Below are positions 1 through 32,188 of a stretch of DNA of 38,540 nucleotides, in pieces. The stretch comes from a virus (lineage: Duplodnaviria; Heunggongvirae; Uroviricota; Caudoviricetes). Position 1 is the stretch's first letter; the number at the start of each line of letters is the position of its first letter. The stretch is from IMG/VR virus record IMGVR_UViG_2541047933_000012. One strand, written 5' to 3'. The notes under the pieces were generated by a model that saw only the letters and a program-made list of their open reading frames with translations, searched no databases and was not told the DNA's origin. A program made the position numbers and the translations under genes.

Positions 1-129
1 ATGCTTATTGGCTATGTACGTGTGTCAACAAATGACCAGAACACAGATCTACAACGTAATGCGCTGAACTGTGCAGGATGCGAGCTGATTTTTGAAGACA
101 AGATAAGCGGTACAAAGTCCGAGACCTAG
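1..129 (+). pseudogene. Truncated serine recombinase (Pin/Hin-family DNA invertase) N-terminal remnant
   Basis: Translation from nt 1 gives MLIGYVRVSTNDQNTDLQRNAL..., the conserved invertase N-terminus with the catalytic Ser, ending at TAG 127-129 after 42 codons; intact invertases are about 190 aa. Confidence 0.55.
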
Positions 130-2174: not shown

Positions 2175-2538
2175 TTTATTTTGCTATGATACAACGTATT
2201 TGTTACCGATTAAGTAAAAAACGCGTCTGAACGCTGACGTTTTAGGGCTTTACTGGTTATTCTTTCTTATCTCTTCATCATCCCATCGGCATCCTGTCGA
2301 GGTTGTTGACTTGTTGTTATTTATTTTGTCTAGGCGCTGTTTAATTATTATTGATAGAATTGATGGTGAGAGGTGATTGAAACCGTAGGCACGTCGTTTG
2401 CAAGGACGTGCTACGACTGGCTGGTGAACTTCCGATAGTGCGAGTATTGAATGATTTCCTACGTGCTAACTAGTGAACAAACAACTCTTCAGTAGACTCT
2501 CAGGTATCATTCAGAGTTTCCTGAACGAAAGTTTTAGC

Positions 2539-2717
2539 TCAATCTTTATCTGCAGTATGTCTAACTGAAAAACTATCGTTGCTGGTGGCTTTTACGATCA
2601 TCTCCACATCGTCATAACGCTTGCCAATGTGTTGGGTTAATTCTTCCTTTAACGCGTCCACAGCGCCGTTTGGCATTTGGTCATTTTGTCTTTGGCTATG
2701 GAGATCTCAATACGCAT
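2539..2717 (-). pseudogene. dinI-like SOS gene, apparently frameshifted
   Basis: Minus-strand ATG at 2717 gives [14 protein letters not shown], then stops; the rest continues one frame over as [37 protein letters not shown]. Both halves match the DinI family pattern; span length is not a multiple of 3. Confidence 0.5.
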
Positions 2718-2776: not shown

Positions 2777-2958
2777 TATCAAGACTTCGTTTTAGCTGCA
2801 TAAGAAAAAAGAGATGGATACATTCGGAAAGATTTTGATGGTGGTAGGCTAAGTGAATAGCCTAAAGGTGTTTTACCCCAATTATTCCCCGGTATTTCTC
2901 CGCATAAAAAACAATCATAAAAAAACCAGCCATAATAGGCTGGTTCTTAAGGGATTTT

Positions 2959-3015
2959 TGGTCGGCACGAGAGGATTTGAACCTCCGCCCCCCGACACCC
3001 CATGATGGCGAGCTA
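2959..3015 (-). other. Orphan 3-prime fragment of tRNA-Pro (anticodon loop through CCA), likely attR core; not a functional tRNA
   Basis: Reverse complement reads ...CATGGGGTGTCGGGGGGCGGAGGTTCAAATCCTCTCGTGCCGACCA, matching the 3-prime ~45 nt of enterobacterial tRNA-Pro (GGG) as recalled, with one T-stem mismatch; no D-arm or 5-prime acceptor strand follows. Confidence 0.55.
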
Positions 3016-3114
3016 CGATCTTAAGGGCTGTTATGTGCCAGAAACAGAGATTTTTATATTCCTCACTCTGGAAATCATAATGCTAACTAGTAGGGATTAT
3101 AAGTTGTCAATTGA

Positions 3115-4537
<1,423 letters not shown>

Positions 4538-4698
4538 GATGCCTCCACCACGCTGCAGAGTTCTTCCTGCAACATGTCAAAGTAGTCATCATCCAGATCG
4601 GTGGCAGGCGTGCCTGTCTGGGGGTTACCACGGGTAAAACCGTTCTTACCCGCGCCGAACTTATCCTTCTGCGCGGTTTTCGTGTCTATACGATGCAT
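4538..4698 (-). pseudogene. Tail-fibre gene 5-prime fragment truncated by the IS26-like element
   Basis: Minus-strand ATG at 4698 opens MHRIDTKTAQKDKFGAGKNGFTRGNPQTGTPATDLDDDYFDMLQEEL..., which runs straight into the IS right repeat after 53 codons. It sits where the tail fibre follows the gp48-like gene. Confidence 0.45.
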
Positions 4699-4701
4699 GG
4701 A

Positions 4702-5286
4702 TTACTCCGGATATTTAAAAATTACGTAGGTATGCGAAGGGCAGAGTTTGTTAAGCACACATTCGACGACGGTGTCGCCCCAGATACGCAGCGCGGAATC
4801 ACAGGGATCGCCACATGTCATCCAGGTGCTGTTGGTGGCGGCTGGCATGTTGACCTGCCAGTAATACCGCCATTCCGGCGCATTCACCGCGTCAGTACAG
4901 GCCGATGAGCAGGTGAACGTGCTTTTGTCGTATCGCGTGATGGTGGCGTCTGGTCTGCCCAGGGCAGCAAGCTGTGCAAGGTAAAAATCCTCATTGATGC
5001 CGCCCGCCAGGTTAACCTTCGCATCCAGTCGTTGCTGACGCTGGCGAAGGGTCTGTGTTCCTGCGGGAATACATTCATCCGGCAGGCCGCACAGACGCTC
5101 CCAGCGATTTATCAGTTCGGTGGTGGTGCGCGGATCCAGCTCCCGCATCAGGGCATCCGCACGCTGATGAACGCGGGTTAATGACTGTGCCGCACCGGCA
5201 ATCGCCGGATCGCTGGCTGACCACGCCGGACCGGGCGGCAGCAGTGCCGACAACAGACGGATGTAATCATCGTTTGTCACGCCCAT
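4702..5286 (-). CDS. Baseplate/tail protein, DUF2313 (Mu gp48 / YmfQ-like)
   Basis: 194 aa with the LLPPGPAW motif typical of DUF2313; sits immediately after the baseplate J-like gene. Confidence 0.55.
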
Positions 5287-6335
5287 GAAATCGTCCCCAG
5301 AACCGCCAGTTCATTTTTTGCAATGGAGATATTTTCCGCCGGTGCAAGCAATTGATGGCTGTATTCCCCGTTCGCACCGGAAATCGCTTCACTGATACGC
5401 GACACCTTCAGTTCTCCCTGCGGATAACCATCACGCAGCAGGAACGAACGCAACTCCGCGGTGATGGCAGCCCGTATTTCCGGTGTATCCGGCGTCACAC
5501 GGATATGAAAATCCACCGTATGCGCCACCGGCCTGAACACATACAAATCAGAGCCTGCCACCGGGGCCAGTGGCCCGATATGTTGTCTTGCCGCCGTTTC
5601 CGTTGATTCTTCCGGAATGGGATTAATCAGGTCACTGCTGGCAATCATCACACCGACAGTCCCCGTTCCCATCCAGTGACGGTATGCCCATGCGCGGGTA
5701 ATGCCGGGCAATTCTTTAGCCCAGACAACATAGTCCCCGTCAGCCCCGCCCTGAGGCGTCCAGTAATACCGCTCAATGACGCGGGCGCGCCACGTTTCCA
5801 GCTCTTCAGTATCAAATCCACCTGTCAGAGTGTCTGCCACGCCGGAAGACGGCAGACCATTAACCGGCGTGACCAGGATTAATGACGTACCGTCGTCAGC
5901 GTTACCGACCGCGCCTGCACTTGAGCAGGCGATCGGCACGCGCAGGACACCACCGGCGCTGGTTGCATCGGCAGTTGCCGTGTACTGAATCAGGTCATCG
6001 CGCTGAATAACACTCCCGGCGGTCACCTTCAGGCCATCGCTGACGCCTTCCCAGCGCATATACCCGCTGGCAGTCGTGGCCCCCTTGCGCGGACACCGTT
6101 TCATCGCAGCATGTCGCGCCAGCCAGGACTCATCGCACAGGTCAGGCAGCATGTTCATTGCCAGATAATCGATGTACCCGTAAACCGTATGCAGCGCCGC
6201 CGCATACACCTTTGCCCGCACGTCTTCATCCATGCGCCGGAGCGTGTCGCTGACGTCCAGCCTGGCGAATAAATCGTTACGGAGCATACTGATATTTTCT
6301 GCCAGCGTCGGGCGCTGAAATTCACTGTCCGCCAT
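5277..6335 (-). CDS. Baseplate J-like protein (Mu gp47-like)
   Basis: 352-aa ORF in conserved Mu-like baseplate gene order with overlapping start/stop. Confidence 0.6.
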
Positions 6336-6750
6336 GCGTTATCGCACTCCACAGATCATCTAAAGAAATCATTACCGGTCCGTCACGACGCCAGAGAGTG
6401 ATACTGTTACCCAGTTCATTAATCCCGGTGCGGAGGATATCCAGATCAATACGGGACACCACGCCGTCATCAATCATCCATTGCAGGCATTCGCGGATAT
6501 ACCCCCTTACCGTCTGCACCAGCTGATTGGTCAGTTTGCTGCGCTGAAGCAGCCACAGTCGGGAGCCGTAACGGTCATTCTGTACCGCAGGCCAGGTATC
6601 CCCCCACCATCCCATCGGGACGTCGGCGTTGTCATCAGGCTCCGCCCGCCGCCAGGTAAACAGGGAAATCACCACGGCGCGGGTCAGCGGATCCAGCGGT
6701 GCGCTGGCGCAGGTGCGTTTACCGTTCACCGTCAGCCACAGTTCCATCAT
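6322..6750 (-). CDS. Baseplate protein, Mu gp46-like
   Basis: 142 aa; position between spike V and J-like genes. Confidence 0.5.
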   Translation of the reverse strand: MMELWLTVNGKRTCASAPLDPLTRAVVISLFTWRRAEPDDNADVPMGWWGDTWPAVQNDRYGSRLWLLQRSKLTNQLVQTVRGYIRECLQWMIDDGVVSRIDLDILRTGINELGNSITLWRRDGPVMISLDDLWSAITHGGQ

Positions 6751-7295
6751 GCCTCCATCGCTTTATCAGGTTTGTCGGTGTTACTGCCCTGACCGTTCTC
6801 TCTGTGACGATGCCCGTTATAGGCAAGCCGCATCGCTGACATGGTGGTGCCGCTGGAGTCGCACAGGTCTTTCACCTGTCCTGTCACTTCCAGGTCCATT
6901 TCAAAACGTGCTTCAGGTGCATTGCGAAACGTGATCGTTTTACCTGCACCGTCCACCACGATCCCCTCCCGGGTCAGCGTCACAGACTGCCCCTGATCGT
7001 CATAGACCGCCACCTCACCCGTCTGCAGCCCTTTCAGGCGGTAGCGCCGGTCCGACACCGTAACAACCACCGCATGAGAACGGTCACCATCCGGAAACAA
7101 CACCACCGCTTCCGCACCGCTGTTTGCCCTTGCGGTAAAACCGTAGGGTTCAAGATGTTCAACCCCGGCTTTGGGTTCACCGGCAATCAGGGACACATCC
7201 ACGGTCTGACATTTCGTGGCGGCACTGATGCTTTTCACCACTGCCCGCCCAATCAGGCCGAGGAGTTGTCGCTGCATGGCTTCAATCGTACTCAT
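6747..7295 (-). CDS. Baseplate assembly/spike protein V-like (Mu gp45-like)
   Basis: 182 aa; gene order and overlapping stop/start coupling. Confidence 0.55.
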   Translation of the reverse strand: MSTIEAMQRQLLGLIGRAVVKSISAATKCQTVDVSLIAGEPKAGVEHLEPYGFTARANSGAEAVVLFPDGDRSHAVVVTVSDRRYRLKGLQTGEVAVYDDQGQSVTLTREGIVVDGAGKTITFRNAPEARFEMDLEVTGQVKDLCDSSGTTMSAMRLAYNGHRHRENGQGSNTDKPDKAMEA

Positions 7296-8374
7296 CAGAA
7301 CGGGTCCTCCTGTACTCTGGCTTTTTTCTTTTTCCGCGCGCCGGGGGCTTCGGGTTCAGGCAGATAAGCATCAGGTGGGCCGACACGGATTTCCGTCAGG
7401 GTGCCGTTCTGGTCCTGAGTAAACGTGACTTCCGAGACAAGCAGTTCGGTATTGTCGAAACCACAGACCGGATCGAAGACAATCACCCGCTGGTTGGGCT
7501 GCCACAGCGTACCGTTACCCTGTCGCCAGCCCTGCACCACATAGGTGGTTTCATCCGTCCGCGCCGCCCGTTGTCGGGCTTCAAAGTCAGCACGCGCAAT
7601 ACAGCCTGCCCCCGTAGCCTGCCCTGTCTGCCTGATATACATCGGACGGTAACGGGCAATAAATGCGTCCTCTGTGCGGGCCCGCAGCGCGCTGGTGGTG
7701 GCCTCACCGAAATCATCGTCGTTTCCAGCACGCTGCCCCGCCACCTGGTAAACAGAAAACCGCTCCCGGATACTCTTCTCCGTATCGCAGGAAAGGATGT
7801 TTTCCCCGAGTACCAGCGCAGTATGTGCCCGCGTTGAGCCAATACCGCCAATCACCAGCCTGCCGTGTGGGTCGTCGTAAGCCAGTGCCTGCTGCTGACC
7901 GAGTATTTTGTTGATTACCTCAATCACCGTTTCACCGTGATCGGGCTGGACGTCAGGAATAACACCCGACGGCGCACCGTTGTTCACCACCTCAATGCCG
8001 AAAGGCGCAGCAAGCGCCTGCGCAATCTGTACCAGCGATCGTCCGTTAAACTGTGTCGGTTCGGCTGCACAGTCAATCAGGTCAGCGGTCAGACTGCGTC
8101 CGGCAATACCGGTGCTGACCGAACGGGCATCGTAACGAACGGGCGTCGCCTCCACCCAGCCGGTGATCACCAGCTCATCACCAATCAGCACCTCCACTTT
8201 TGAACCGTTTTTAATGCGCGGCTGAAGCGTGGTGATACCCTCATCACCCGGCCACTGGCGGGTGATCTCCACACTGAAATCCCGCGCCAGCCGTTCAATA
8301 CCGGCACCGATGCGCACCGATGTCCAGCCATTCCACTCCCGGCCATTTACCCGTAGCGTGACGTTATCGTTCAT
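7295..8374 (-). CDS. Baseplate hub / tail protein, Mu gpP (gp44)-like
   Basis: 359 aa, immediately downstream of the DNA-circularization-like gene; C-terminal lysine run (ARKKKKAR). Confidence 0.5.
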   Translation of the reverse strand: MNDNVTLRVNGREWNGWTSVRIGAGIERLARDFSVEITRQWPGDEGITTLQPRIKNGSKVEVLIGDELVITGWVEATPVRYDARSVSTGIAGRSLTADLIDCAAEPTQFNGRSLVQIAQALAAPFGIEVVNNGAPSGVIPDVQPDHGETVIEVINKILGQQQALAYDDPHGRLVIGGIGSTRAHTALVLGENILSCDTEKSIRERFSVYQVAGQRAGNDDDFGEATTSALRARTEDAFIARYRPMYIRQTGQATGAGCIARADFEARQRAARTDETTYVVQGWRQGNGTLWQPNQRVIVFDPVCGFDNTELLVSEVTFTQDQNGTLTEIRVGPPDAYLPEPEAPGARKKKKARVQEDPF

Positions 8375-9741
8375 TGCACTGGCACCTTCAGAGGGATCAC
8401 CGGCACAAAGCCGGGATGCGTAATGGCATTACGCCGGATAATGTCCGCGTCACGCGCCGCGTTATCAAACCAGGTCGCCGCCAGCACCAGCGCGGGTAAA
8501 ACCTCATCCGGTGTGCGCTGAATGATCCGTGCAGACTGTTCAAGGCGCGTGTTGATATCCGCATTCAGATCTGCTTTCACCCGGCGCAGCGCCAGAAACA
8601 GCACATCACTGGTTGTACGGGACAACTCCTTATCAATTGCCGTATTCAGTGTGTCGCGAATGTCGGTCAGTTCTTCCCACGTTGGCAGGTCAACCGTGTT
8701 TTTCACCGCCGGTGCATTGTTCAGTGCCGGATGCGTGACAGAAGGCCAGCCGGTGCTCTGCGCGGGTGTTGTTGACTGCCCCACTGTGGCATTCTGCATC
8801 ACCGCGGAAGTTGTGGGCGCAGGCAATCGTGTGACGGCATACGCCGCTTCGCTGATTGCGGTCGTACGAAGGGTGCTGGCAACCACGTTACGCTGCTGCG
8901 TCGCCGTGGCGGTGGTTTTACTGTCCGTTTTCCAGACGCCGCGCGGTTGCAGATCGCTGCCGAGGCTGACACCGGAAAGCGTTTTGATCATGGTGACCAG
9001 GTCGCTGGCGTTACCATAAAGGCGTTTCCCGGTACGCCACATTTTCTGCACCTGCTCAACGAAATTTTTGCCTGACGATGGCGGCGGCAGAAGTACCGAG
9101 ATATCCCCCTGCAACAGCCTGGCGGCATCCGATACGGCAGAATCCACCACTTTCATCGCATCAGAAACATACCCAAGCATTGTGCTGGCATTACCGACGA
9201 CGTCGTTCTGCACAAAATCTGCCACGCCATCGATACTGAAACCACTGAAGCTGTCACTGATGCAGTCATCCAGTGCAGAACAGGATGACATCAGCGTCTG
9301 CGCCGTCGCCGCACCTGAAGTGGGGTAAGAGAGTTCTCCCGCTTCGACAAACTTCAGGTCAAAGCGGACAATACGCCCTTCACTCTTCGATGTGCTGACC
9401 CGAACTTCCCCGTCAACACAGACTTTCAGCTCACCGTAAGTCGGATGGACAAGCGTGCCGGGACCGGGTTTATTCAGCGCGTCAATCAGGCGATCGCGCT
9501 GGTCAAAGCAGTCATCTCCCACCACATAAGCTGTGATGGACGGGCGGAAAGTGATTTTCCCCAGGTCTTCGGTATAGGGTTTGTCGCGGTTCGGGTATTC
9601 GTGCGTTTCCACACGACGACCGGTTCCCGCACTTTCTTCTTCAACCTTAAACGGCACACCGCGAAATGACGCGTCCTGAAGTCTGTCTTTCCACGTCATA
9701 TAAACTCCGTACATAAAAAATCCCACCGGAGTGGGACTCAT
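8371..9741 (-). CDS. DNA circularization protein N-like tail protein (Mu gpN-like)
   Basis: 456 aa following the tape measure gene; N-terminal region resembles the Mu N family. Confidence 0.55.
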   Translation of the reverse strand: MSPTPVGFFMYGVYMTWKDRLQDASFRGVPFKVEEESAGTGRRVETHEYPNRDKPYTEDLGKITFRPSITAYVVGDDCFDQRDRLIDALNKPGPGTLVHPTYGELKVCVDGEVRVSTSKSEGRIVRFDLKFVEAGELSYPTSGAATAQTLMSSCSALDDCISDSFSGFSIDGVADFVQNDVVGNASTMLGYVSDAMKVVDSAVSDAARLLQGDISVLLPPPSSGKNFVEQVQKMWRTGKRLYGNASDLVTMIKTLSGVSLGSDLQPRGVWKTDSKTTATATQQRNVVASTLRTTAISEAAYAVTRLPAPTTSAVMQNATVGQSTTPAQSTGWPSVTHPALNNAPAVKNTVDLPTWEELTDIRDTLNTAIDKELSRTTSDVLFLALRRVKADLNADINTRLEQSARIIQRTPDEVLPALVLAATWFDNAARDADIIRRNAITHPGFVPVIPLKVPVQ

Positions 9742-9759
9742 TAACAGATTAATTTTTCA

Positions 9760-11595
9760 TTACCTGCCAAAGCGCGTATAGCCAACATCATGGCTGACAT
9801 CAAAACCGCTGGATCGCGTTTCCATAACCCGCATACCCGGAGGTGAATTCACAAAAGAGACCTTGATCTCACCATCAACTTTTGGCGCAGAAGCTTTGTT
9901 AATCATGAAGGGATTCGGGCCTGTGGCACCGGAGGCGTTGTTTGACTGAGCCGGATCCACCGCCTGATAAGGTGTGTATCCCCGTGCCGGTATTCCCGTC
10001 CCATAAGCATCATAAGCACCCGCGCCCCACTGCGCAGAGTTAATGGCATCGACCGTGTCACCGGAACTGTCGGTAAACCACTCAATAATTGGCTTCAGCT
10101 TGTCCCACATATCCTGAAACCACTTAACAACCGGTCCCCAGTTATTGATTACCATCCCCAGCGGCGACCAGGCAAAAACCTTCTTCAGAAGTTCCCGGCC
10201 AGCCTCAAAATAAGGACCAATGGTTTCCCAGAGCTTCTTGAAATAAGGTCCGACAACATCCCAGTTAGTGATAATTAATCCCGCAGCCAGGGCTATCGCC
10301 GTCGCAATCATGCCAATCGGCGTCATCGACATGATCCTGCTGACAATACTGATGGCACCGCCAACGCCCATCAATCCCAGTTTCAGAATCGCAAGACCGG
10401 CAGCAAGCCCGACGACGCCGCGAATAACCCGGGGATTTTCATCCGCAAACTTCGTGAATTTCTCCCCCAACTCCCCCAGCCATTGCGTGATATTTTTAGC
10501 GTCACCAGAAAATGCGCCGCCAATAGCCGCAAGGCCGTTAGTTGCGGTCCCTGTCATTGCCTCCCACAGGTTGGACAGCGTACCAAGCTGTGCCTGAACA
10601 CGTTTATTCAGACTGGCCTGTTTATTCATCTTCTGCTGGATCTGGTCGTAGCCATCCTTTCCTTTATCGATTAGTGCATTGACCACCTGAAGGGTTTCGG
10701 CATCATCACCAAATATTGCCTTAAGTACACCAGTTCGCTTAACGTCGGTCAGTTTTCGCAGCTTTGCCAGTTGCCTGAACATGTTATCAAGACCGCCAAA
10801 ACTCCCTTTGCCGTCAGTAAAATCGAGCTGTACCCCGAGTTTCTGGCGGGCCATGACTTTATTGACGTCCCTGATTTTCTTAACGCTTAATCCGGACTGG
10901 ATAACTTTTCGCAGGGCGTTACCTGCCGACTCCCCGTTCATCCCCATCTGATCCATCATGACGCTGATGGGGGCAAGGCTCTGTGCAGCCTGAAGACCGT
11001 CCTTGTTCACCATCTTCAGAACAGAGCTGGTTTTAGTGAAGAAGGACAACATGTTGGTATCGTCAACGCCCAGATAAAACGCCTTCTGGATAGTGTCGAA
11101 CAGCCCCATCATGTCTTCTGACGCCGTTCCGGTAGCATCCTGCATCTTTGCGGCAAACTCGGCAGCCGCTTCCGGTGTTTTTTTCAGTTGTACCGCAAGA
11201 TAAGCTGTCGCTTTACCCACACCGCCAAGAATGTTTTCTGCCGGGATCCCCTGACGCACCAGCATCTGCATCATGTTCTGGAAATCAGCCGTTGTACCGG
11301 GTAGCTGGTTACCCAGACCAATAGCCAGTTTATTGATGTCCTGAAAGCGCTTTCCGACCTCACCGTTCGCATCCATCATGGCAACTTTCAGCCCGGTGGC
11401 GGCGTTTTCCTGATCGGCATAAGATTTCAGGGAAAGCGTCAGACCCGCAGCCAGTCCGCCACCAAGCGCCAGCCCACCCTGTGACGCTTCTTCCGCCTGG
11501 CGTTTAAATCCCCGGATTTTCTTTTGCATTTTCGACAGCGCGGGAGAAAGCCTGTCGACACCGGTGATCAACGCCTTAAGCTCAAATTCAGCCAT
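9760..11595 (-). CDS. Tail tape measure protein
   Basis: 611 aa, Gly/Ala-rich with hydrophobic glycine-zipper segments in the C-terminal half; located after the frameshifted chaperone pair. Confidence 0.75.
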   Translation of the reverse strand: MAEFELKALITGVDRLSPALSKMQKKIRGFKRQAEEASQGGLALGGGLAAGLTLSLKSYADQENAATGLKVAMMDANGEVGKRFQDINKLAIGLGNQLPGTTADFQNMMQMLVRQGIPAENILGGVGKATAYLAVQLKKTPEAAAEFAAKMQDATGTASEDMMGLFDTIQKAFYLGVDDTNMLSFFTKTSSVLKMVNKDGLQAAQSLAPISVMMDQMGMNGESAGNALRKVIQSGLSVKKIRDVNKVMARQKLGVQLDFTDGKGSFGGLDNMFRQLAKLRKLTDVKRTGVLKAIFGDDAETLQVVNALIDKGKDGYDQIQQKMNKQASLNKRVQAQLGTLSNLWEAMTGTATNGLAAIGGAFSGDAKNITQWLGELGEKFTKFADENPRVIRGVVGLAAGLAILKLGLMGVGGAISIVSRIMSMTPIGMIATAIALAAGLIITNWDVVGPYFKKLWETIGPYFEAGRELLKKVFAWSPLGMVINNWGPVVKWFQDMWDKLKPIIEWFTDSSGDTVDAINSAQWGAGAYDAYGTGIPARGYTPYQAVDPAQSNNASGATGPNPFMINKASAPKVDGEIKVSFVNSPPGMRVMETRSSGFDVSHDVGYTRFGR

Positions 11596-12006
11596 GTGTG
11601 CGTTTCTCCTGCTCTATCCTGTTTGCCTGACTGACCAGCAAGGGAATTTCACTGATCGGCATATTCAGCAATTCGAAGGGATTAATGCGCCAGTAGCTGG
11701 CGCAGTCAAAGAAGCGATCAGTGAGGTATTCAGCCGTCAGGCCTGGAGGAAAAAACCAGCCACAAGCCACGCCGCAGCATTCAGGTCTGCCGGAGACATC
11801 TGGTCGACAGAGTTTTGCGGCACTTTCGCCAGCCGCACAATGTATTTCGATACCACATGCGCCAGAAGTCTGACGGACTCATCCTGATTCATCTGGTAGG
11901 GATACCCCAGCTCGCGGACATCTTTCCCGGTGGGCTCATCAAACTCCAGTACGGAGAGTGTCTCGCCATGAGCGGTAATCGGTTTCTTTAACTCAAGCTC
12001 TTTCAT
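11588..12006 (-). CDS. Tail assembly chaperone pair with programmed -1 frameshift
   Basis: 89-aa ORF (11737-12006) ends ...AGFFLQA; a classic slippery heptamer TTTTTTC (minus strand, 11749-11755) lets the -1 frame continue (11588-11755) until it overlaps the tape measure start. Confidence 0.55.
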
Positions 12007-12362
12007 TACTGGTAATCCCCTTCTTCACCGTGGAACTCAAGATCAACCGTCCCTTCTTCGGCATTATGGTTCGCTTCGCCGTGCAGCCAGGCAGACGACA
12101 GTACATAGACCTGACCGTTCGCCAGCTCGGCAGTGATGGTCATCTCATCAGACGAGGTGATTTTGCTCACCGGAAAATTCTTCGGCACCTTGAAGGTCCC
12201 TTTAACATAAGGCGCACGGTGAGTTTCCTTGCGGTCCACTGAACCGTCCAGGCCGATGATGTCATCATTGACCGTCCTGTTCATGGGCACCTCAATGCCG
12301 CCGGTCAGCGATAGCTGCTGACCGTCAATTTTGAAATAACAGGTTCCCCCGATACGGGCCAT
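12006..12362 (-). CDS. Tail tube protein
   Basis: 118 aa immediately downstream of the sheath gene. Confidence 0.6.
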   Translation of the reverse strand: MARIGGTCYFKIDGQQLSLTGGIEVPMNRTVNDDIIGLDGSVDRKETHRAPYVKGTFKVPKNFPVSKITSSDEMTITAELANGQVYVLSSAWLHGEANHNAEEGTVDLEFHGEEGDYQ

Positions 12363-13858
12363 TATGCGGACTCCTCTGAATACTGAAGACGGAACTGGTT
12401 AACCACGGCAAAGACACGCAACTGGTTAACATAGTCAGGCGGGAACAGCGTGTTCAGGCGGTTCGGATCGCTGGCATCACGCTCCACAACCAGGTACTGC
12501 TTAAAAAGTTCGTAGTTTTCCACGATCCCCGCACGCTCAAGCTGACGGTAGGTTGCCAGCAGTTCCCCTTTGATCACCGCCGGGGTGACAATCGCCTGAC
12601 CGGGACCAAAGCGGGTACCGTCGCTGGCAAGCTTGTGACGCCCGTACTTACTGGTAATGACGGATTTCAGTTTGCGCAGTACATACGCACTGGTATGCAG
12701 CGTCTCGCTGTCGAGGTAGCTGTTATCCGCAACCCCGTAAGCGTTTTTCCTGTACGTGGTGACATCACGCTGAATGCGCAGTACCCCGCTTTCGACATAC
12801 GCCGTTGCCACGCCATGAGACAGCAGGGTCTTTTGTTCGGTCATCGTGAACCGTTTCCCCTTCGGCGCAGGCAGCATACCCACCAGCTCACCGGTCTGCG
12901 TGGGACGTGCCGGATCGTTGCGGATAAACACCGCTGCGCGGGCGGTACGGCTTGCCGCCAGCTCGTCGGCAGGCGTCTGGGTGTCTTTTTCGTACCCCGC
13001 CAGGGTAATGTGCTGCTGGTTAAACTGGTCACCTGCGGTCACCAGTTCTGACAGCGTGCCGGTCTTTGCCGTATACACATGACCATACAGCTGACGCGCA
13101 TAGCTCCAGCGACCGCTGGTATCGTTCATCTCGGTCACCAGCGTGTTAACGGAGGCCGTGTCGTTGAACGGCAGGCCGATATAATCAAACGGCTCATCCG
13201 CCATTGCAGCCACAGCGCCGGTGAGAACCGGAGCACCCGTTCCGGCGGTACCCGTCACCACGGCAATCTGTACGCCCGCTGGCAGCACTTCGCCCCCACC
13301 AAAGCCGTAGTAATTGAGGCTGACAGGAATTTCATTCCCGCAAAGCCCCTTATGACGCGCGGTCAGTGTGACCACGCCTGCCGAAGATGAAGCCGTAAAC
13401 GGCAGGGTCGGAACGGCATTGATGGCATCCTGGATACTGCTGGCAATCATCGTAACGTTATCGCCGTTAGTCACCGGTACCTGCACGCGGGTACGTCCCA
13501 CATACACATTCACCGTGCCGGTTTCGGTTGCCGCCCCGGTCACCGTCAGCGTAACCGTTGCCGCCGCGCCTGTGGATTCAGGAACGGCAATCACATACAG
13601 CTCGCCAAACGGGTCAGTCTGGCGATAAGCCTCGACCATACGCGCCAGCTGACTTCCCGCACCACAAATCTGGCGTGCATAGTCTGCCGACGGCATCAGT
13701 ACCAGACTGTTGGCAACAATCTCTGCACCGTTATTGGCATGACCAATCAGCAGCGATGCTCCGCTGTCCTGTGCAGTATTCGCAGCCTGGTTATCCATTT
13801 CCGCATAAAACAGCGGAACCAGCGTATTCGACGGAATGGTGTTAAAGCTTATCGTCAT
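12362..13858 (-). CDS. Contractile tail sheath protein
   Basis: 498 aa, the size and position expected for a sheath protein upstream of tube, chaperone and tape measure. Confidence 0.75.
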   Translation of the reverse strand: MTISFNTIPSNTLVPLFYAEMDNQAANTAQDSGASLLIGHANNGAEIVANSLVLMPSADYARQICGAGSQLARMVEAYRQTDPFGELYVIAVPESTGAAATVTLTVTGAATETGTVNVYVGRTRVQVPVTNGDNVTMIASSIQDAINAVPTLPFTASSSAGVVTLTARHKGLCGNEIPVSLNYYGFGGGEVLPAGVQIAVVTGTAGTGAPVLTGAVAAMADEPFDYIGLPFNDTASVNTLVTEMNDTSGRWSYARQLYGHVYTAKTGTLSELVTAGDQFNQQHITLAGYEKDTQTPADELAASRTARAAVFIRNDPARPTQTGELVGMLPAPKGKRFTMTEQKTLLSHGVATAYVESGVLRIQRDVTTYRKNAYGVADNSYLDSETLHTSAYVLRKLKSVITSKYGRHKLASDGTRFGPGQAIVTPAVIKGELLATYRQLERAGIVENYELFKQYLVVERDASDPNRLNTLFPPDYVNQLRVFAVVNQFRLQYSEESA

Positions 13859-14012
13859 CGGTGTTCACCTTTTTATTCACGCGCCGGATATCACCCGCTG
13901 CTTCACGGCGCAGCCAGTAGTTGTTCTCATCAACATTTCGCCCTTCGGCGGGCAAAAGGTCGCCGCGGGCAGGGTCAGGCACTGACCGCCCTTTAACAGG
14001 TTTCACAAACAT
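13842..14012 (-). CDS. Small hypothetical protein (56 aa), below the ORF-track cutoff
   Basis: ATG at 14012 preceded by GAGGA; encodes MFVKPVKGRSVPDPARGDLLPAEGRNVDENNYWLRREAAGDIRRVNKKVNTDDDKL; its stop overlaps the sheath start codon. Confidence 0.3.
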   Translation of the reverse strand: MFVKPVKGRSVPDPARGDLLPAEGRNVDENNYWLRREAAGDIRRVNKKVNTDDDKL

Positions 14013-14020
14013 GATGATCC

Positions 14021-14581
14021 TCAGGAAGGAAGGGGTATTTCGGTGTGATGTTCGATATCGCCGTCAGACCCGTTACCGGGATCGAGATAATCAACATCAA
14101 TCGCCAGCGTTCGCAGTTCATCCAGACTGTTCAGGTCATCCTGCTGGCGGGTATCGTCTTCGGTCAGCTCTCTGATGACCGAAAAATCGAACTGATAAAT
14201 CAGCTCATGACGATTCAGATCCAGCAGCGTGCCGCCGTCATAGGTAATCGGGTTACCGCACGCTTCCGGGTTCCAGCCCAGCAGGGCCTTAAAGAGCATC
14301 TGCCGGACATCGTCCACCACATCATACGAGGCAAACTGACCGCGCTCATCACGTCCGTTACTCAGTATGACAACCACGGAGAAGCCCTCTTTCAGCTCCT
14401 GCCAGTAGTCGGTCTGGCTTTTGTTTTCTCCCGGAGAGTCATCACCCGGTACCACATATGCCGCCGGGAGTCTCAGCTTTCCGACCTCCGGCAGATTTTT
14501 GAACTGTGCCGCGCCTGCCACCCGGTTTTCAAAATACGGGCAGCGGGCACGCAGCGCAGCAATAACAGGCGTCAGTTTCAT
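14021..14581 (-). CDS. Tail completion / virion morphogenesis protein (DUF1834-like, Mu gp37-like)
   Basis: 186 aa between the head-tail joining genes and the sheath. Confidence 0.45.
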   Translation of the reverse strand: MKLTPVIAALRARCPYFENRVAGAAQFKNLPEVGKLRLPAAYVVPGDDSPGENKSQTDYWQELKEGFSVVVILSNGRDERGQFASYDVVDDVRQMLFKALLGWNPEACGNPITYDGGTLLDLNRHELIYQFDFSVIRELTEDDTRQQDDLNSLDELRTLAIDVDYLDPGNGSDGDIEHHTEIPLPS

Positions 14582-15084
14582 CTGCGTCGTCGCTCCGGCT
14601 TCAGTGATTTACGTAATTCCCGCGCCAGAAAATAGCGTGTCCAGCTGCGGTTCTTTTCAAGCGTTTCCACCATAAAGTTATTACGTGGAGCCAGTCGCCA
14701 GCCGCTGCCACCGGATGCACCACGATGATGGCTGCGACGACGCTTTGCCCCTCGCCTCACGCCATAGAACAAAAAAGCCGGATAAAAATCACCGGTGATA
14801 CGGCGGTTTCCCTCTCCATTACGCTGGTTAGGGGCTATACGTGCCATAAAACCAGGGCGATGTTTACTGGCTCTGGGTACCATGTAACCAATCGAACGAG
14901 CCAGGCGTCCGGTCTGATAACCGGGGTTTTCACCCGGTGCCGACCGCGCACGGCGCATCACCAGCCGACGGGCATCACGCATATGACGCTGACCAATCGT
15001 GACAAACGCCCGCCGGACACGGGCGCGGTTAAAGCGCATCTCCGCGGGCTGCTGAAAATCAACGTGCAAAAAGGAAGTCGTCAT
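14578..15084 (-). CDS. HK97 gp10-like neck / tail-completion protein
   Basis: 168 aa, basic and Arg-rich; in the head-tail connector gene block. Confidence 0.45.
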   Translation of the reverse strand: MTTSFLHVDFQQPAEMRFNRARVRRAFVTIGQRHMRDARRLVMRRARSAPGENPGYQTGRLARSIGYMVPRASKHRPGFMARIAPNQRNGEGNRRITGDFYPAFLFYGVRRGAKRRRSHHRGASGGSGWRLAPRNNFMVETLEKNRSWTRYFLARELRKSLKPERRRR

Positions 15085-15469
15085 TGTTGCCTCCGTGACT
15101 CTGCCTACATTCGCCCAGCTCCGTACACTCCAGCAGCAGAAAGCGCCGCGCCCCGTTCAGATCGCGCTGACGTTTCACCCGGTACACACTGTCACCGCAG
15201 ACCACCTCATAATCAGCGGTAATCCCCCGGCGGTAACGAATGGTGATGTAATGGGTGATGGCGTCCCCGGTCTGCGCGGTTTCCTGCCAGGTGGTGGCAC
15301 TGGTCTGGATAACCTTCGCCCATGTCCGGAACGTAATCAGGTATTGAGGCTCCACGCCAAAGTTATCCGCGGGCATATCCACCCGCAGGCGGATCAGGAC
15401 GCGTTTATTCAGTTCACCGGGGTCCGGCAGAATGTAGGTTGCGCTGGTCTGCGCCTGACGAATTTTCAT
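15059..15469 (-). CDS. Head-tail joining (head closure) protein
   Basis: 136 aa following the gp6-like connector gene. Confidence 0.5.
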   Translation of the reverse strand: MKIRQAQTSATYILPDPGELNKRVLIRLRVDMPADNFGVEPQYLITFRTWAKVIQTSATTWQETAQTGDAITHYITIRYRRGITADYEVVCGDSVYRVKRQRDLNGARRFLLLECTELGECRQSHGGNNDDFLFAR

Positions 15470-15789
15470 TGCGGAAAGTACCTGTACGGGCCGACAAGCC
15501 AGCCAAAACTCTGCGGCATGTCGAGTTTCTCCACTTCCGTAACCGACGAGCGGTTTTCGTAAAAATGGCTGATAAGCATCAGCATCCCCAGACGAATATC
15601 ATCCGGCAGGTGCAGCCCGTCCGGATCGCTGTCCGGAATGGTTTCATCCGGTGCATAGAGCTTCCGGTTCAGATACGTTTCCGTCCGCTTTTGTGCCGCA
15701 CAGGCCAGCAGTTGCAGATGGCGGTCATCAGCATCGAAATCCTCATCCAGCCGGAGTTGGGCTTTAATCTCTTCCATTGTCAGAAGCAT
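15466..15789 (-). CDS. Head-tail connector protein (gp6-like)
   Basis: 107 aa downstream of the major capsid gene. Confidence 0.5.
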   Translation of the reverse strand: MLLTMEEIKAQLRLDEDFDADDRHLQLLACAAQKRTETYLNRKLYAPDETIPDSDPDGLHLPDDIRLGMLMLISHFYENRSSVTEVEKLDMPQSFGWLVGPYRYFPQ

Positions 15790-15791
15790 AC

Positions 15792-15992
15792 TCAGCCCTC
15801 TTTACTGGTCGTGGCTTTTTTCTCTTTTGCCGCTTTACTGCTTTTTGCACTGATTCCGCGCTCTGCTAACCCGGCCTGAAGTGCAATCTCCTGCACCCGG
15901 GCAGGAAGCGCCCCATCGTCATACTCACCGGCCCGAATGACCTCAACACGCATACCGTCCGGTGACCATTTCAGATCTTGTTTCAGGATCAT
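15792..15992 (-). CDS. Small hypothetical head-module protein
   Basis: 66-aa ORF between the capsid and connector genes. Confidence 0.3.
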   Translation of the reverse strand: MILKQDLKWSPDGMRVEVIRAGEYDDGALPARVQEIALQAGLAERGISAKSSKAAKEKKATTSKEG

Positions 15993-16041
15993 GATTCTTC
16001 ACCCGTCAGAACAGGGGGCGCGGTTCCGCGCCCCTGAGTGA

Positions 16042-17247
16042 TTACGCCGCTGCAATCTTCAGCAGTTTGATGGCCTGCGAATCGACCAGCATCCCGCCGG
16101 TGCGCTTGGTGGTATAAAAACCGACAAACGGTTTATTGGTGTACGGGTCACGCAGAATGCGGGTGCCGATACGGTCAACGATGGTGTAACCCCGTTTGAA
16201 GTTACCAAATGCAATGGCTTTCGCATCAGCGGCGATATCCGGCATCTGTTCGTTTTCAGCGATACCGTAACCCGCCAGAGAGGACGGCTGCCCCAGTTCC
16301 AGCCCCGGACGCCACAGATAGTTACCCTCGCTGTCTTTAAGCAGACGGATGGCAAACAGGCTGTTGTTGTTCATCATGAACTTCGCGCCAGTGCGGTGTG
16401 CCTTACGCAGCGTGTAAATCAGTTTGATAATGGCGTCTGCGGTCACCGCCGTCGCTTCGCCGGATACAATATGCTGAAGTTTGCCGAACGCCCGGACCTT
16501 ATCGGTTTCATCAGTGGATTCATACGCCAGGAACCCTTTCGGCTTCTTGGTACCATCGCCGGTGGTAAAGGCAATTTCTTCCTGTTCGGCAAATTCGGTT
16601 GCCAGCTCGCTGTTGATCCATGCTTCCACGTTGAAAAAGGCATCATCCAGCATTTTCTGGGTGGCCTGCGGGTTACCGTAGATTTCCCCCATGAAAGGTT
16701 CAATCAGGCCCAGTTTTGAGGTGGCAGTCTGGGAGCGCGCGTCAGTCTCGCCAACCCATCCGGAAGCCGTGCCGCCCAGATTCACCAGTTTTTTGTAGTC
16801 GGAACCACCAACGGTGATCACCGTGGCTTCCTGGCGCATCACCACTTCATCTTTCAGCAGGGTGAGAATGTTGCGATCCAGTGCTTCCGGCACGGCATAG
16901 CCGCCGTCTTCATCGGTGCCCACCTGCAATGCCTTGCGCTCCAGATCGCGCAGACCATCTTCACGGCCTTTACGCAGGAAGCCCACAAACGCTTCTTTAT
17001 GCTCGGTGGCCAGTTTATTTTGCGCACCACCTGCCGGACGTTTCAGCTCAAGCAGCTCTTTTTCAAGATCGCTTTTGAGGTTTTCCAGCTCGCTGAGTTT
17101 CCCGTTCAGGGTTTCCACCTGCCCGGCAAGTTTGCCTTTTTCCTGCTCAATCGCATCCACGCGCTTGTCGTTCTTTGCTTTGAAGTCGTCAAACTTCTGC
17201 TGCAGCTCCTGCGCGACCTGTTCGACATCTTTAATATCAACCGCCAT
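16042..17247 (-). CDS. Major capsid protein, HK97 fold
   Basis: 401 aa with an N-terminal coiled-coil delta domain, directly after the prohead protease. Confidence 0.8.
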   Translation of the reverse strand: MAVDIKDVEQVAQELQQKFDDFKAKNDKRVDAIEQEKGKLAGQVETLNGKLSELENLKSDLEKELLELKRPAGGAQNKLATEHKEAFVGFLRKGREDGLRDLERKALQVGTDEDGGYAVPEALDRNILTLLKDEVVMRQEATVITVGGSDYKKLVNLGGTASGWVGETDARSQTATSKLGLIEPFMGEIYGNPQATQKMLDDAFFNVEAWINSELATEFAEQEEIAFTTGDGTKKPKGFLAYESTDETDKVRAFGKLQHIVSGEATAVTADAIIKLIYTLRKAHRTGAKFMMNNNSLFAIRLLKDSEGNYLWRPGLELGQPSSLAGYGIAENEQMPDIAADAKAIAFGNFKRGYTIVDRIGTRILRDPYTNKPFVGFYTTKRTGGMLVDSQAIKLLKIAAA

Positions 17248-17261
17248 CGTATTTCTCCTGA

Positions 17262-17948
17262 TTAGAAGTTCAGATTTTTCAGTGCATTCAGTGCAGAGCC
17301 CACATCCTCAGCGTCGCGCAGGGACAGTGCGCCATAGCCCCCGGCCATGAATGCTTTGGCCTGGGTACGGGAGAGTCCGACATCACGCAGGACTCTTTCG
17401 ATTTTTTTCTGTTCGGGGATTTCCCCGCGGGCCAGTGCGTTCTTGACGTCGCTGATCCGCGCCTCGTCGTTAGACGGGAACGTCACCAGGCTGACTTCCC
17501 AGAGGTCGATTTCTTTCAGCAGAAAGGCTTCTTTGCTCCGGTCGTATTCCCAGTCTTTCAGGACGTACCCAATAGAAAGGCCGGTTAACGAACCGGCCTT
17601 CATGTGTGCATGTGCGCGTTTTGCGAGGGGATCATCATCAATAAGCAACCGTCCCCTGACGTAAAGCCCGACATCGTCTTCCTTCATTTCGGTGTAAACA
17701 CCGATGGGTTCATCCATGCGGTGCTGCCAGAGCAGCGCAGGTAACGCTTTTCTGTCACTCCACGCCCGCAGGGAAGCAGCAAATGCCCCGGACATCACCA
17801 CATCATCGTGGCTGTCCTTTACACCAAAGACGGAGCCATACCCTTCAAACTCACCGGAGTCACTGACAGATTTCAGACTCAGCGGTACATCAAGACGTTG
17901 TTTCGTCTGCATTGGCGTTATCCTTCTGCTTACCGGCTTTACTGCCAT
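17262..17948 (-). CDS. Prohead protease (HK97 family)
   Basis: 228 aa between the portal and capsid genes. Confidence 0.7.
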   Translation of the reverse strand: MAVKPVSRRITPMQTKQRLDVPLSLKSVSDSGEFEGYGSVFGVKDSHDDVVMSGAFAASLRAWSDRKALPALLWQHRMDEPIGVYTEMKEDDVGLYVRGRLLIDDDPLAKRAHAHMKAGSLTGLSIGYVLKDWEYDRSKEAFLLKEIDLWEVSLVTFPSNDEARISDVKNALARGEIPEQKKIERVLRDVGLSRTQAKAFMAGGYGALSLRDAEDVGSALNALKNLNF

Positions 17949-19131: not shown

Positions 19132-19313
19132 TATTTACCTCCGCCGACAGACAGCTGTGTACGATCGAGATATCGCGCCACCAGCCACGACCAGAACAGG
19201 CACAGCGCCCCGGCAACAACAAAACCCGCCGGGGGATAAATCAGCCAGGCACCATATGCCAGCAAAAGCGCACCCAGCACGCCCACCAGAGGCGCGAGAA
19301 TCAGCATGATCAT
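19131..19313 (-). CDS. Small two-TM membrane protein between large terminase and portal
   Basis: 60 aa, almost entirely hydrophobic; GAGGT ribosome-binding site upstream; its TAG stop overlaps the portal GTG start. Confidence 0.4.
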
Positions 19314-19324
19314 AATTACCTCAG

Positions 19325-21058: not shown

Positions 21059-21558
21059 GATTCGATGATTTTCAGAAACGGGTTAGTGGCTTTCTTCTGC
21101 CCCGCCAGGCCAATCAGACGCTGACGGCTGCTGGGGTCGAGTCCGAGCATTGCCCCCGTGCTGCTCATCTCGGACTCCTGTTCTTTTTTGGCTGTCAGCT
21201 CCGGATTTTTGACCCTGCCGCCCATTGCGCCGGTGATGGTATTGCCCTGTATGGCAATATTTTTCACAGCACGTCGCCAGAACTCATAGGCCACGCACCA
21301 CCGCTCAAGCACCGCGAGGTCAGTCACGCACAGCAGGCCCTGACCGCAGAGTTCTTTGGTTGTCAGTTGCCACATGATCGTGGCGAGAGGGAGATCTTCT
21401 TCAGCGAACCACTCCGGTGGCTCAACACCTTTGATGGGCGTAAAAACAGGTTCATCTTTGTTCAGGGCTCGCTTGCCGGGGTTTCCGGCCAGCGCCTTGC
21501 GCGCCGTTGGCTTGGGGCGACGCCCGGAACGCCCCGCCGTTCCAGCCATATGCGGCAC
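21055..21558 (-). CDS. Terminase small subunit (P27 family)
   Basis: 167 aa, basic N-terminus; directly upstream of the large subunit. Confidence 0.7.
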
Positions 21559-21674
21559 TCCTGGTTAAATTTCATTTTTCGCGGGTATAAAAAAACGATG
21601 GGGCGGGCAGTCCGGAAGACGTCAGGTCACAGGGATTTGACCCGCCCCTCCCCTCAGAAAGTTGAGAATTATTA
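21559..21674. other. Candidate cos / packaging-recognition region
   Basis: HNH-to-small-terminase intergenic region with a G-rich inverted repeat GGGGCGGG...CCCGCCCC; this is where HNH-associated HK97-like phages carry cos. Confidence 0.3.
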
Positions 21675-31153: not shown

Positions 31154-31184
31154 CGTTCTGTGGTTAAAAATTGAAAGTGTTCTG

Positions 31185-31385: not shown

Positions 31386-31391
31386 ACAATG

Positions 31392-31458: not shown

Positions 31459-31475
31459 AGGGTTTTAATTTCGTT

Positions 31476-32150: not shown

Positions 32151-32162
32151 TCAATGTTTATG

Positions 32163-32186: not shown

Positions 32187-32188
32187 TA

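What the first reader, a model, noticed from the sequence alone, without database searches (positions are those of the whole stretch)
2959..3015. Orphan tRNA-Pro 3-prime fragment marks a prophage attachment junction
Only the anticodon-loop-to-CCA part of a tRNA-Pro is present, on the minus strand, with no 5-prime half. That is the signature of the distal att repeat of a tRNA-integrated element. Its orientation places the element to the right, so this would be attR of the prophage, with the intact tRNA-Pro and attL beyond the right window edge.
Basis: partly seen in the sequence, partly recalled or inferred. Interest (0 to 1): 0.5.

Follow-up and report, generated by a model that had tools for sequence, protein, structure and literature searches.

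The report
Fossil tRNA-Pro attachment site inside prophage
The tRNA-Pro fragment is real, but it is a leftover of the attachment site of an ancestral phage that used the proL tRNA gene; today's prophage sits at the ssrA (tmRNA) gene instead, so the fragment is an ordinary molecular fossil and not a current prophage boundary.

Summary
Observation confirmed. Window 2959-3016 (minus strand) matches positions 20-77 of E. coli tRNA-Pro(GGG) proL at 54/58. No tRNA is callable, and an intact terminator follows the CCA end.

Interpretation only partly right. The fragment derives from an att site, but it is the phage-borne copy, not the displaced chromosomal one. Its 3' flank (terminator, DinI pseudogene, GmrSD) is 98.9% identical to a prophage arm that joins an intact proL next to yejM in strain NC19; 103 complete E. 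coli genomes carry that junction. Free phages Eeyore and Flotzy carry the same 46-nt core beside their integrase.

The prophage here has a different integrase. It is 91% identical to Citrobacter phage phiNP Int, whose attP is the 3' end of ssrA, and it is unrelated to the proL-site integrases. In isogenic complete genomes (NU14 and about 110 others) the element is bounded by ssrA-derived repeats. The distal repeat lies about 1.1 kb past the right window edge. No tRNA-Pro occurs within 12 kb beyond that edge.

The "element to the right" geometry comes from a 5.8-kb segment bracketed by two inverted IS26 copies in a draft scaffold. Without the IS26 copies the orientation is the opposite. This is an ordinary relic of low novelty.

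The parts
2959..3016 (-). tRNA-Pro(GGG) 3' fragment, proL positions 20-77. The 46-nt att core is 2959-3004; 3005-3016 is a 12-nt degenerate extension into the D-stem and anticodon-stem 5' side.
   Evidence: Alignment A1; 54/58 identity; unique 28-mer; no tRNA called.
2913..2948 (-). Rho-independent terminator directly downstream of the CCA end. It is the phage-type homologue of the native proL terminator.
   Evidence: Terminator scan and fold. It is conserved in Eeyore, Flotzy, Gifsy-2 and NC19.
2500..2717 (-). DinI-like pseudogene, part of the old P' arm. DinI sits next to attP in Eeyore, Flotzy and phiNP.
   Evidence: RefSeq annotation of the identical NU14 sequence; phage contexts.
225..2114 (-). 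GmrSD-like type IV restriction enzyme (DUF262/DUF1524), cargo on the old P' arm.
   Evidence: Pfam GmrSD_N and GmrSD_C; PADLOC mREase_IV, 1415 bits.
1..123 (+). 5' remnant of the tail-fibre DNA invertase gene.
   Evidence: RefSeq annotation in NU14 and NC19; 100% identical to the invertase of vB_EcoM-689R6.
3166..3738 (+). PD-T4-3 (LEM-3-like GIY-YIG) defence gene, truncated by IS26. It is the first gene of the block lying between the old tRNA-Pro att and the ssrA att.
   Evidence: PADLOC PD-T4-3, 7e-137 for the full-length NU14 copy; Pfam; junction sequence.
3712..4537 (+). IS26-like element, 826 bp, with 14-nt terminal inverted repeats. It joins the tRNA-fragment segment to the tail-fibre gene in inverted orientation.
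   Evidence: 98% identical to IS26; inverted repeats; breakpoints against NU14; 8-bp TCGTGAGG target duplication.
4538..35233 (-). Body of an SfV/SfII-like myovirus prophage with lambdoid early genes. The tail-fibre gene is cut at 4538.
   Evidence: 97-98% identical to SfII, SfI, SfV and vB_EcoM-689R6; NU14 annotation.
36216..37594 (+). Excisionase and tyrosine integrase of the phiNP (ssrA-targeting) type.
   Evidence: Int is 91% identical at protein level to phiNP Int; Pfam Arm-DNA-bind_2 and Phage_integrase; phiNP attP is the ssrA 3' end (PMC6456863).
37586..38540 (-). Cargo genes between int and the ssrA-type att: a 199-aa hypothetical protein and a DUF4325/STAS-like protein. The third gene and the distal ssrA' repeat lie beyond the window.
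   Evidence: distal ssrA' core at L002 16416-16432, 1,075 nt past the window end.

Best explanation
The fragment is a fossil of the phage-side attachment sequence (core plus P' arm) of an ancestral SfV-like temperate phage that integrated into proL, the tRNA-Pro(GGG) gene. Such phages carry a copy of the last 46 nt of the tRNA plus their own terminator. Integration then rebuilds a working proL whose 3' end and terminator are phage-supplied.

In the lineage seen here, the proL-specific integrase side was replaced by a phiNP-type module that targets ssrA. That module comprises hyp-xis-int, three cargo genes, the ssrA-type attP with its terminator, a DpnII-like gene, a hypothetical gene and PD-T4-3. 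The old P' arm (tRNA piece, terminator, DinI, GmrSD, invertase remnant, tail fibres) stayed behind. It now lies about 2.9 kb inside the ssrA-bounded prophage.

The fragment has no cognate integrase and no partner site, and it has no evident present role. In this assembly it also sits in a 5.8-kb segment bracketed by two inverted IS26 copies, which flips it relative to the phage body.

Shown: the sequence homologies, the junctions, the integrase type and the ssrA repeats. Inferred: the order of events and how the module was replaced.
For: - The 46-nt core (2959-3004) is 45/46 identical to proL and to the attP core beside the integrase in free phages Eeyore and Flotzy, whose layout is tail fibre - invertase - DinI - UmuD-like - core+terminator - int.
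- Window 1-3016 is 98.7-98.9% identical to the prophage arm of strain NC19, which ends in an intact proL (ARAGORN Pro-GGG) next to yejM. Homology stops exactly at 3016. That junction occurs in 103 complete E. coli genomes.
- The other end of the NC19 element has the displaced proL core with native downstream sequence and a 400-aa integrase 77% identical to Eeyore Int.
- The window's Int is 91% identical to phiNP Int. PhiNP attP is the 25-bp 3' end of ssrA, shown experimentally (PMC6456863), and that core lies at the end of the phiNP record.
- In NU14 a 197-bp direct repeat (90% identical; ssrA 3' end plus 150 bp) brackets the whole element between ssrA and glaH.
- In metagenome contig L026 a P2/186-like prophage abuts this element exactly at the ssrA 3' 44 nt, with the PD-T4-3 block on the SfV-like side.
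- Nucleotide homology between the window and NC19 resumes in the early genes and ends at 35233, which is the second module breakpoint.
- Relatives with the same body use thrW (SfV, SfII; from my own knowledge) or sit beside icd with an e14-like excisionase (689R6). Integrase swapping is therefore usual in this group.
- Gifsy-2, which I recall does not integrate into a tRNA gene, carries the same T-arm plus terminator relic.
Against: - The 12 nt beyond the core (3005-3016) resemble the tRNA itself (9/12), not the P arm of Eeyore, Flotzy or NC19. The relic therefore looks more like an attL (host side - core - P') than an attP, which a simple module swap between free phages does not predict.
- No phage or genome was found that carries the inferred donor module on its own. 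No exact 21-mer of the variant sequence exists in 185,579 species-representative genomes.
- The flanks of the source strain beyond the right window edge were not read directly. They are inferred from genomes 100% identical over the window.
- The distal ssrA' core in NU14 has a 5-nt deletion (20/25), so the ssrA repeats are not a perfect att pair.
Confidence: 0.8

Rival explanations
1. The fragment is the displaced chromosomal 3' copy (attR) of a prophage currently integrated in a tRNA-Pro gene. The element extends to the right, and an intact tRNA-Pro lies beyond the right window edge.
For: In the window as assembled the phage body lies on the 5' side of the fragment, the geometry expected for a displaced copy. 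Islands in tRNA genes are delimited this way (PMC4383910 abstract).
Against: - The 3' flank is phage-type (98.9% to the NC19 arm), not chromosomal.
- The integrase is of the ssrA-targeting type.
- There is no tRNA and no tRNA-Pro core in the 12 kb past the right edge in NU14.
- The geometry depends on an IS26-bracketed segment beside a scaffold gap and is reversed in about 112 complete genomes.
Confidence: 0.03
2. A true but secondary att junction. A proL-type phage integrated, through its own integrase, into a proL-like secondary site lying next to PD-T4-3 inside a related phage already resident at ssrA. Homologous recombination between the shared early genes of the two phages then deleted the proL-type integrase, the other junction and the resident phage's body. 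The fragment would be the surviving attL of that event.
For: - The 12 nt beyond the core are tRNA-like but imperfect (9/12), as expected of a secondary site recognised by the integrase.
- One breakpoint lies at the att core and the other in the conserved early genes around yfdR, at 35233.
- Tandem prophages at ssrA do occur.
Against: No unoccupied version of the proposed secondary site was found. In every genome and contig recovered (113 complete genomes, 3 viral contigs, 5 metagenome contigs) the PD-T4-3 upstream region is already joined to the fragment. The model needs two successive events.
Confidence: 0.15
3. A decayed phage-encoded tRNA-Pro gene, that is, a pseudogene of a cargo tRNA unrelated to integration.
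For: Phages often carry tRNA genes. A weak acceptor-like 5' sequence (TGGCACATA) lies at roughly the right distance and pairs with the 3' acceptor strand in the MFE fold.
Against: - The 5' similarity is not significant: 23% of random window segments match as well.
- The same sequence is demonstrably the prophage/proL junction in 103 genomes, and the attP core beside int in free phages.
- The downstream terminator is homologous to the chromosomal proL terminator.
Confidence: 0.02

Closest known systems
attP of proL-integrating temperate coliphages (Escherichia phages Eeyore PP925821 and Flotzy PP925827) and the proL prophage remnant of E. coli NC19 / APEC O78
   Same: The same 46-nt core, from the tRNA-Pro(GGG) anticodon loop to CCA. 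The same type of phage-supplied terminator. A DinI-like gene on the same side. The NC19 arm is 98.9% identical over 3 kb.
   Different: In those elements the core sits next to a cognate integrase (Eeyore, Flotzy) or is fused to the 5' part of proL next to yejM (NC19). Here there is no cognate integrase and no proL, and the other side is a PD-T4-3 defence gene.
Citrobacter phage phiNP (ssrA-integrating myovirus; PMC6456863)
   Same: Int is 91% identical. Cargo genes lie between int and attP. A DinI gene sits just past attP. The attachment core is the 3' end of ssrA.
   Different: PhiNP has no tRNA-Pro relic, and its cargo genes differ (AAA ATPase, HicAB, acetyltransferase).
Displaced tRNA/tmRNA gene fragments that mark island endpoints (Islander concept, PMC4383910)
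   Same: A 3' tDNA fragment associated with an integrative element.
   Different: Here the fragment is the element-borne copy and not the displaced host copy. It no longer lies at an endpoint and has no intact partner.
Shigella serotype-converting phages SfV/SfII/SfI and e14-position phage vB_EcoM-689R6
   Same: The structural gene module is 97-98% identical. Cargo sits between the tail fibres and att.
   Different: Integrase and att modules differ. SfV and SfII use thrW (from my own knowledge), and the 689R6 record sits beside icd. This illustrates the module swapping that left the relic.

Membership tests
Displaced (orphan) tRNA 3' fragment at the distal end of a tRNA-integrated element | 3' part of a tRNA gene, near-identical to the genuine gene | tested here: met
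   54/58 identical to proL; core 45/46.
Displaced (orphan) tRNA 3' fragment at the distal end of a tRNA-integrated element | Intact copy of the same tRNA in direct orientation at the other end of the element | tested here: not met
   0 tRNAs in the window. No tRNA and no core match in NU14 for 12 kb past the right edge. The core occurs once in the window.
Displaced (orphan) tRNA 3' fragment at the distal end of a tRNA-integrated element | Sequence 3' of the fragment is native chromosomal DNA downstream of the tRNA | tested here: not met
   The 3' flank is 98.9% identical to the NC19 prophage arm across DinI and GmrSD. It is only 86-88% identical to native proL downstream sequence, and only over ~42 nt.
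Displaced (orphan) tRNA 3' fragment at the distal end of a tRNA-integrated element | Integrase of matching target specificity in the element | tested here: not met
   Int is 91% identical to ssrA-specific phiNP Int and shows no significant similarity to the proL-site Int.
Functional attP of a proL-integrating phage | Core identical to the proL 3' end, flanked by a phage terminator and the DinI-side arm | tested here: met
   Alignment A1 with Eeyore, Flotzy and NC19; phage contexts.
Functional attP of a proL-integrating phage | Cognate integrase gene and P arm adjacent to the core | tested here: not met
   The sequence beyond 3016 is a PD-T4-3 gene. No proL-type integrase is present in the window.
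phiNP-type ssrA-integrated prophage (the element that now contains the fragment) | Integrase homologous to phiNP Int | tested here: met
   353/387 residues identical.
phiNP-type ssrA-integrated prophage (the element that now contains the fragment) | Direct repeats of the ssrA 3' core at both ends, one within an intact ssrA | tested here: inconclusive
   Seen in isogenic NU14: intact ssrA core 25/25 and a distal copy 20/25 with a 5-nt deletion, within a 197-bp 90% repeat. The intact ssrA is also seen in the source scaffold. Both copies lie outside the window, and the distal one was not read in the source strain.
Functional tRNA gene | Complete cloverleaf detectable by tRNA finders | tested here: not met
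   ARAGORN finds 0 genes. Rfam finds no hit at gathering score, and tRNA-clan hits score 6.5 bits or less.

The most novel reading that the evidence does not exclude
The relic keeps 45/46 of the proL core and an almost intact anticodon-stem half-site. It could therefore still serve as a secondary landing site for proL-type integrases of superinfecting phages such as Eeyore or Flotzy. Fossil att sites inside prophages would then act as hot spots for nested integration, with later homologous collapse swapping integrase and defence-gene modules between phages.
Probability: 0.08. Interest if true: 0.4.

Novelty: already known. Interest (0 to 1): 0.14.

Why it matters
It matters mainly as a caution. 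A tRNA 3' fragment next to phage genes is not enough to call a prophage boundary. Here it would misplace the boundary, misname the target gene (proL instead of ssrA) and miss about 3 kb of defence cargo. The locus also gives a clean, datable example of integrase/att module replacement in SfV-like phages. The old attachment site survives as a marker between two defence-gene cassettes, GmrSD on one side and PD-T4-3 on the other. Beyond that it is an ordinary relic.

Tried and rejected
- **Full tRNA on closer folding.** ARAGORN and Rfam are negative. The acceptor-like TGGCACATA seen in the MFE fold is not significant against window controls.
- **A living tRNA gene with the variant sequence.** Two exact-pattern scans of 185,579 species-representative genomes gave 0 hits.
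- **The IS26 junctions elsewhere.** There are 0 hits in viral or metagenome contigs, and no complete E. coli genome spans the junction. The source scaffold was found instead through the truncated PD-T4-3 protein.
- **An unoccupied PD-T4-3 site or a donor phage.** Every hit (3 viral contigs, 5 metagenome contigs, 113 complete genomes) already carries the same junction.
- **vB_EcoM-689R6 as a free-phage reference for attP.** Rejected, because the record is a prophage excerpt that includes host genes around icd.
- **A tRNA-Pro core repeat near the integrase.** None was found.

Full report
**1. The observation**

On the minus strand, window 2959-3016 reads GTAGCTCGCCATCATGGGGTGTCGGGGGGCGGAGGTTCAAATCCTCTCGTGCCGACCA. 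This matches E. coli K-12 proL, the tRNA-Pro(GGG) gene, at 54 of 58 positions over tRNA positions 20-77.

- The 46 nt from the anticodon loop to CCA (2959-3004) differ at one base, T->G in the variable loop.
- The next 12 nt (3005-3016) match in register at 9/12. Only 3.6e-4 of the window's 12-mers reach that level.
- The T-arm/acceptor 28-mer is unique in the window and never appears in shuffles.
- No complete tRNA is present. ARAGORN calls nothing. Rfam finds nothing at gathering score and at most a 6.5-bit truncated clan hit at E<=10.
- An acceptor-like TGGCACATA about 40 nt upstream pairs with the 3' acceptor strand in the MFE fold. It is not significant, because 23% of random window segments align as well to the tRNA 5' end.
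- A strong terminator hairpin (2921-2948) with a T-run follows the CCA end.

The end coordinate is 3016, not 3015.

**2. Where the window comes from**

The window is E. coli chromosome of the ExPEC/APEC B2 type.

- Positions 1-3713, 4538-14414 and 23200-38540 are 100% identical to strain NU14.
- The phage body (4538 to about 35200) is an SfV/SfII/SfI-like myovirus with lambdoid early genes, 97-98% identical to those phages.
- The exact source was recovered through the truncated PD-T4-3 protein. It is the draft assembly GCA_000461155.1, scaffold KE702294.1.

**3. Whose DNA flanks the fragment**

If the fragment were the displaced host copy, the DNA 3' of it would be native chromosomal sequence downstream of proL. 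It is not.

- All 5,426 complete E. coli genomes match the fragment at their proL locus. Beyond the tRNA, only about 42 nt of terminator align, at 86-88% identity.
- By contrast, window 1-3016 is 98.7-98.9% identical to one arm of a prophage remnant in strain NC19. The only interruption is an IS2 in NC19. The arm reads tail-fibre assembly genes, invertase remnant, GmrSD-like gene, DinI pseudogene, terminator.
- In NC19 that arm runs straight into an intact proL (ARAGORN: Pro-GGG) next to yejM. The homology stops exactly at window 3016.
- This junction is present in 103 complete genomes, including APEC O78.
- At the other end of the NC19 element sit the displaced proL core with native downstream sequence, next to yejO, and a 400-aa integrase.

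Free phages show the same core as their attP. Eeyore and Flotzy have the order tail fibre - invertase - DinI - UmuD-like - [46-nt core + terminator] - integrase. Eeyore's integrase is 77% identical to the NC19 one.

The fragment is therefore the phage-supplied copy of the proL 3' end together with its P' arm. It is not the displaced host copy.

**4. What the present prophage actually uses**

- The only integrase in the window (36422-37594) shows no significant similarity to the proL-site integrase.
- It is 91% identical (353/387) to the integrase of Citrobacter phage phiNP. PhiNP attP was shown experimentally to be the 25-bp 3' end of ssrA (PMC6456863). That core lies at the end of the phiNP record, 2.8 kb past int with a cargo gene in between.
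- In NU14 the whole element lies between ssrA and glaH. A 197-bp direct repeat, 90% identical, brackets it. The repeat consists of the last 42 nt of ssrA plus 150 bp that includes a terminator.
- The distal copy carries a 5-nt deletion in the 25-bp core. It lies 1,075 nt beyond the right edge of the window.
- NU14 has no tRNA gene and no tRNA-Pro core in the 12 kb beyond that edge.
- The three small genes between int and the distal repeat travel with int in all ten distinct contexts examined. In several of these a P4-type integrase island follows in tandem.
- In a gut-metagenome contig (L026), a P2/186-like prophage abuts this element exactly at the ssrA 3' 44 nt, with the PD-T4-3 block on the SfV-like side.

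The prophage is ssrA-bounded. In the NU14 arrangement the tRNA-Pro piece lies about 2.9 kb inside its ssrA-proximal end. The order there is ssrA - terminator - DpnII-like - hyp - PD-T4-3 - tRNA-Pro' - terminator - DinI' - GmrSD - invertase' - tail fibres.

**5.

- Window 3712-4537 is an IS26-like element: 98% identical to IS26, 14-nt terminal inverted repeats, 826 bp because of a 6-bp internal duplication.
- Relative to NU14, the DNA on its left (NU14 locus L001 12001-15713) is inverted with respect to the DNA on its right (L001 9877 downward).
- In the source scaffold, 81 nt left of the window start, there is a 710-N gap. Beyond the gap comes a partial second IS26 in the opposite orientation, then the remainder of PD-T4-3, and then ssrA.
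- The 8-bp target TCGTGAGG is found at both IS26 junctions in inverted orientation.
- This fits an inversion of a 5.8-kb segment between two inverted IS26 copies. It fits equally well two simple insertions whose intervening segment was given an arbitrary orientation by a short-read assembler. I could not decide between the two.
- Either way, in the roughly 112 complete genomes that carry the relic without IS26, the fragment's CCA end and terminator face the tail genes, exactly as the intact proL does in NC19. That is the orientation of an element-supplied copy.

**6. Most likely history**

An SfV-like phage with a proL-type att module gave rise to the present phage by replacement of its integrase side.

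- One breakpoint is at window 3016/3017, 12 nt beyond the att core.
- The other is at about 35233, where nucleotide homology with the NC19 early genes (yfdP/Q/R) ends.
- The incoming block, read through the circular phage form, is hyp-xis-int(phiNP type) - three cargo genes - ssrA attP + terminator - DpnII-like - hyp - PD-T4-3.
- Swapping of integrase modules is normal in this group. From my own knowledge, SfV and SfII use thrW. The 689R6 record sits beside icd with an e14-like excisionase.
- Gifsy-2, which I recall does not integrate into a tRNA gene, retains the same T-arm + terminator relic, including the variable-loop G variant.

How the swap happened is inferred, not shown. The 12 tRNA-like but imperfect bases beyond the core suggest an alternative. 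A proL-type phage may have integrated into a proL-like secondary site inside a related phage already resident at ssrA. Homologous recombination between their shared early genes would then have collapsed the pair. I give this about 15%. No unoccupied site or donor phage was found in any collection searched.

**7. Function now**

None is evident. The fragment has no cognate integrase, no partner site and no tRNA fold. The terminator is intact and may still stop transcription coming from the PD-T4-3 divergent intergenic region toward DinI'/GmrSD, but that is speculation.

The prophage itself looks degraded. In NU14-type genomes the invertase is truncated, DinI is a pseudogene and the distal ssrA core carries a deletion. 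In this strain IS26 additionally cuts both the tail-fibre gene and PD-T4-3.

**8. Comparison and novelty**

The phenomenon is textbook. Integrative elements carry the 3' part of their target tRNA or tmRNA gene and regenerate it on integration (PMC4383910). Mosaic phages exchange integrase modules. A stranded att copy is an expected by-product.

I file the fragment as a relic of a proL-type attP/attL arm. It is not a functional att site, because the cognate integrase and partner site were tested for and are absent. Novelty: already known in kind. Interest is low, about 0.14. The value lies mainly in correcting the boundary call: the target is ssrA, not proL, and the PD-T4-3 block belongs to the prophage.

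Noticed in passing
window 3712-4537; L015 5391-6044: The IS26-like copy in the window is 826 bp. It has a 6-bp TACTGG duplication inside the transposase gene and one mismatch in a terminal repeat (GGCGCTG instead of GGCACTG). The partial second copy left of the window lacks the duplication. A 710-N scaffold gap begins 81 nt left of window position 1, so the orientation of the 5.8-kb segment between the two copies may be a real inversion or an assembly choice.
   Followed up: partly
window 225-2114 (-), 3166-3738 (+); NU14 L001 16531-17319: The old tRNA-Pro att sits between defence genes. On one side is a GmrSD-like type IV restriction enzyme. On the other are PD-T4-3 (GIY-YIG; cut by IS26 in this strain) and a DpnII/MboI-like nuclease-domain protein. 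Together they form a defence-cargo hotspot at the att-proximal end of the prophage.
   Followed up: partly
window 37586-38185 (-), 38214-38540 (-), plus a 303-aa gene just past the window end (NU14 L002 15346-16257): Three small genes lie between the integrase and the ssrA-type att: a 199-aa protein with no hits, a DUF4325/STAS-like protein, and a 303-aa protein with a weak HATPase_c_2 match. They accompany the integrase in all ten contexts inspected. They have no PADLOC match and could be an uncharacterised cargo or defence module.
   Followed up: partly
NU14 NZ_CP019777.1 2954000-2954189 (about 1.06-1.25 kb past the window end): The distal ssrA repeat has a 5-nt deletion inside the 25-bp phiNP-type core (20/25). 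The att repeat extends 150 bp beyond ssrA at 90% identity. Precise excision of this prophage may be impaired.
   Followed up: no
Gifsy-2 NC_010393.1 44256-44334 (L007 4001-4079): Salmonella phage Gifsy-2 carries the same tRNA-Pro T-arm/acceptor plus terminator relic near its right end. It shares the variable-loop G variant seen in the window.
   Followed up: partly
NC19 NZ_CP076654.1 1681792-1681869 (L004 36793-36870): RefSeq annotates the displaced yejO-side proL copy as a 78-nt tRNA-Pro, but ARAGORN does not call it. Its 5' half is phage P-arm sequence that only loosely resembles a tRNA.
   Followed up: no
L017 (CP196270.1) and L026 (gut metagenome contig ORML01000277): L017 is a deletion derivative in which an IS3-family element leaves only the int-side trio and the PD-T4-3 block between glaH and ssrA. 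L026 has a P2/186-like prophage in tandem with this prophage at ssrA.
   Followed up: partly
window about 22000-25000 and 35000-36200: Low-GC islands (0.34-0.38, against about 0.55 for the phage body) suggest moron or cargo insertions. The 296-aa ORF 35323-36213, just upstream of xis, has only a weak Csx27-like PADLOC hit (1.4e-5).
   Followed up: no
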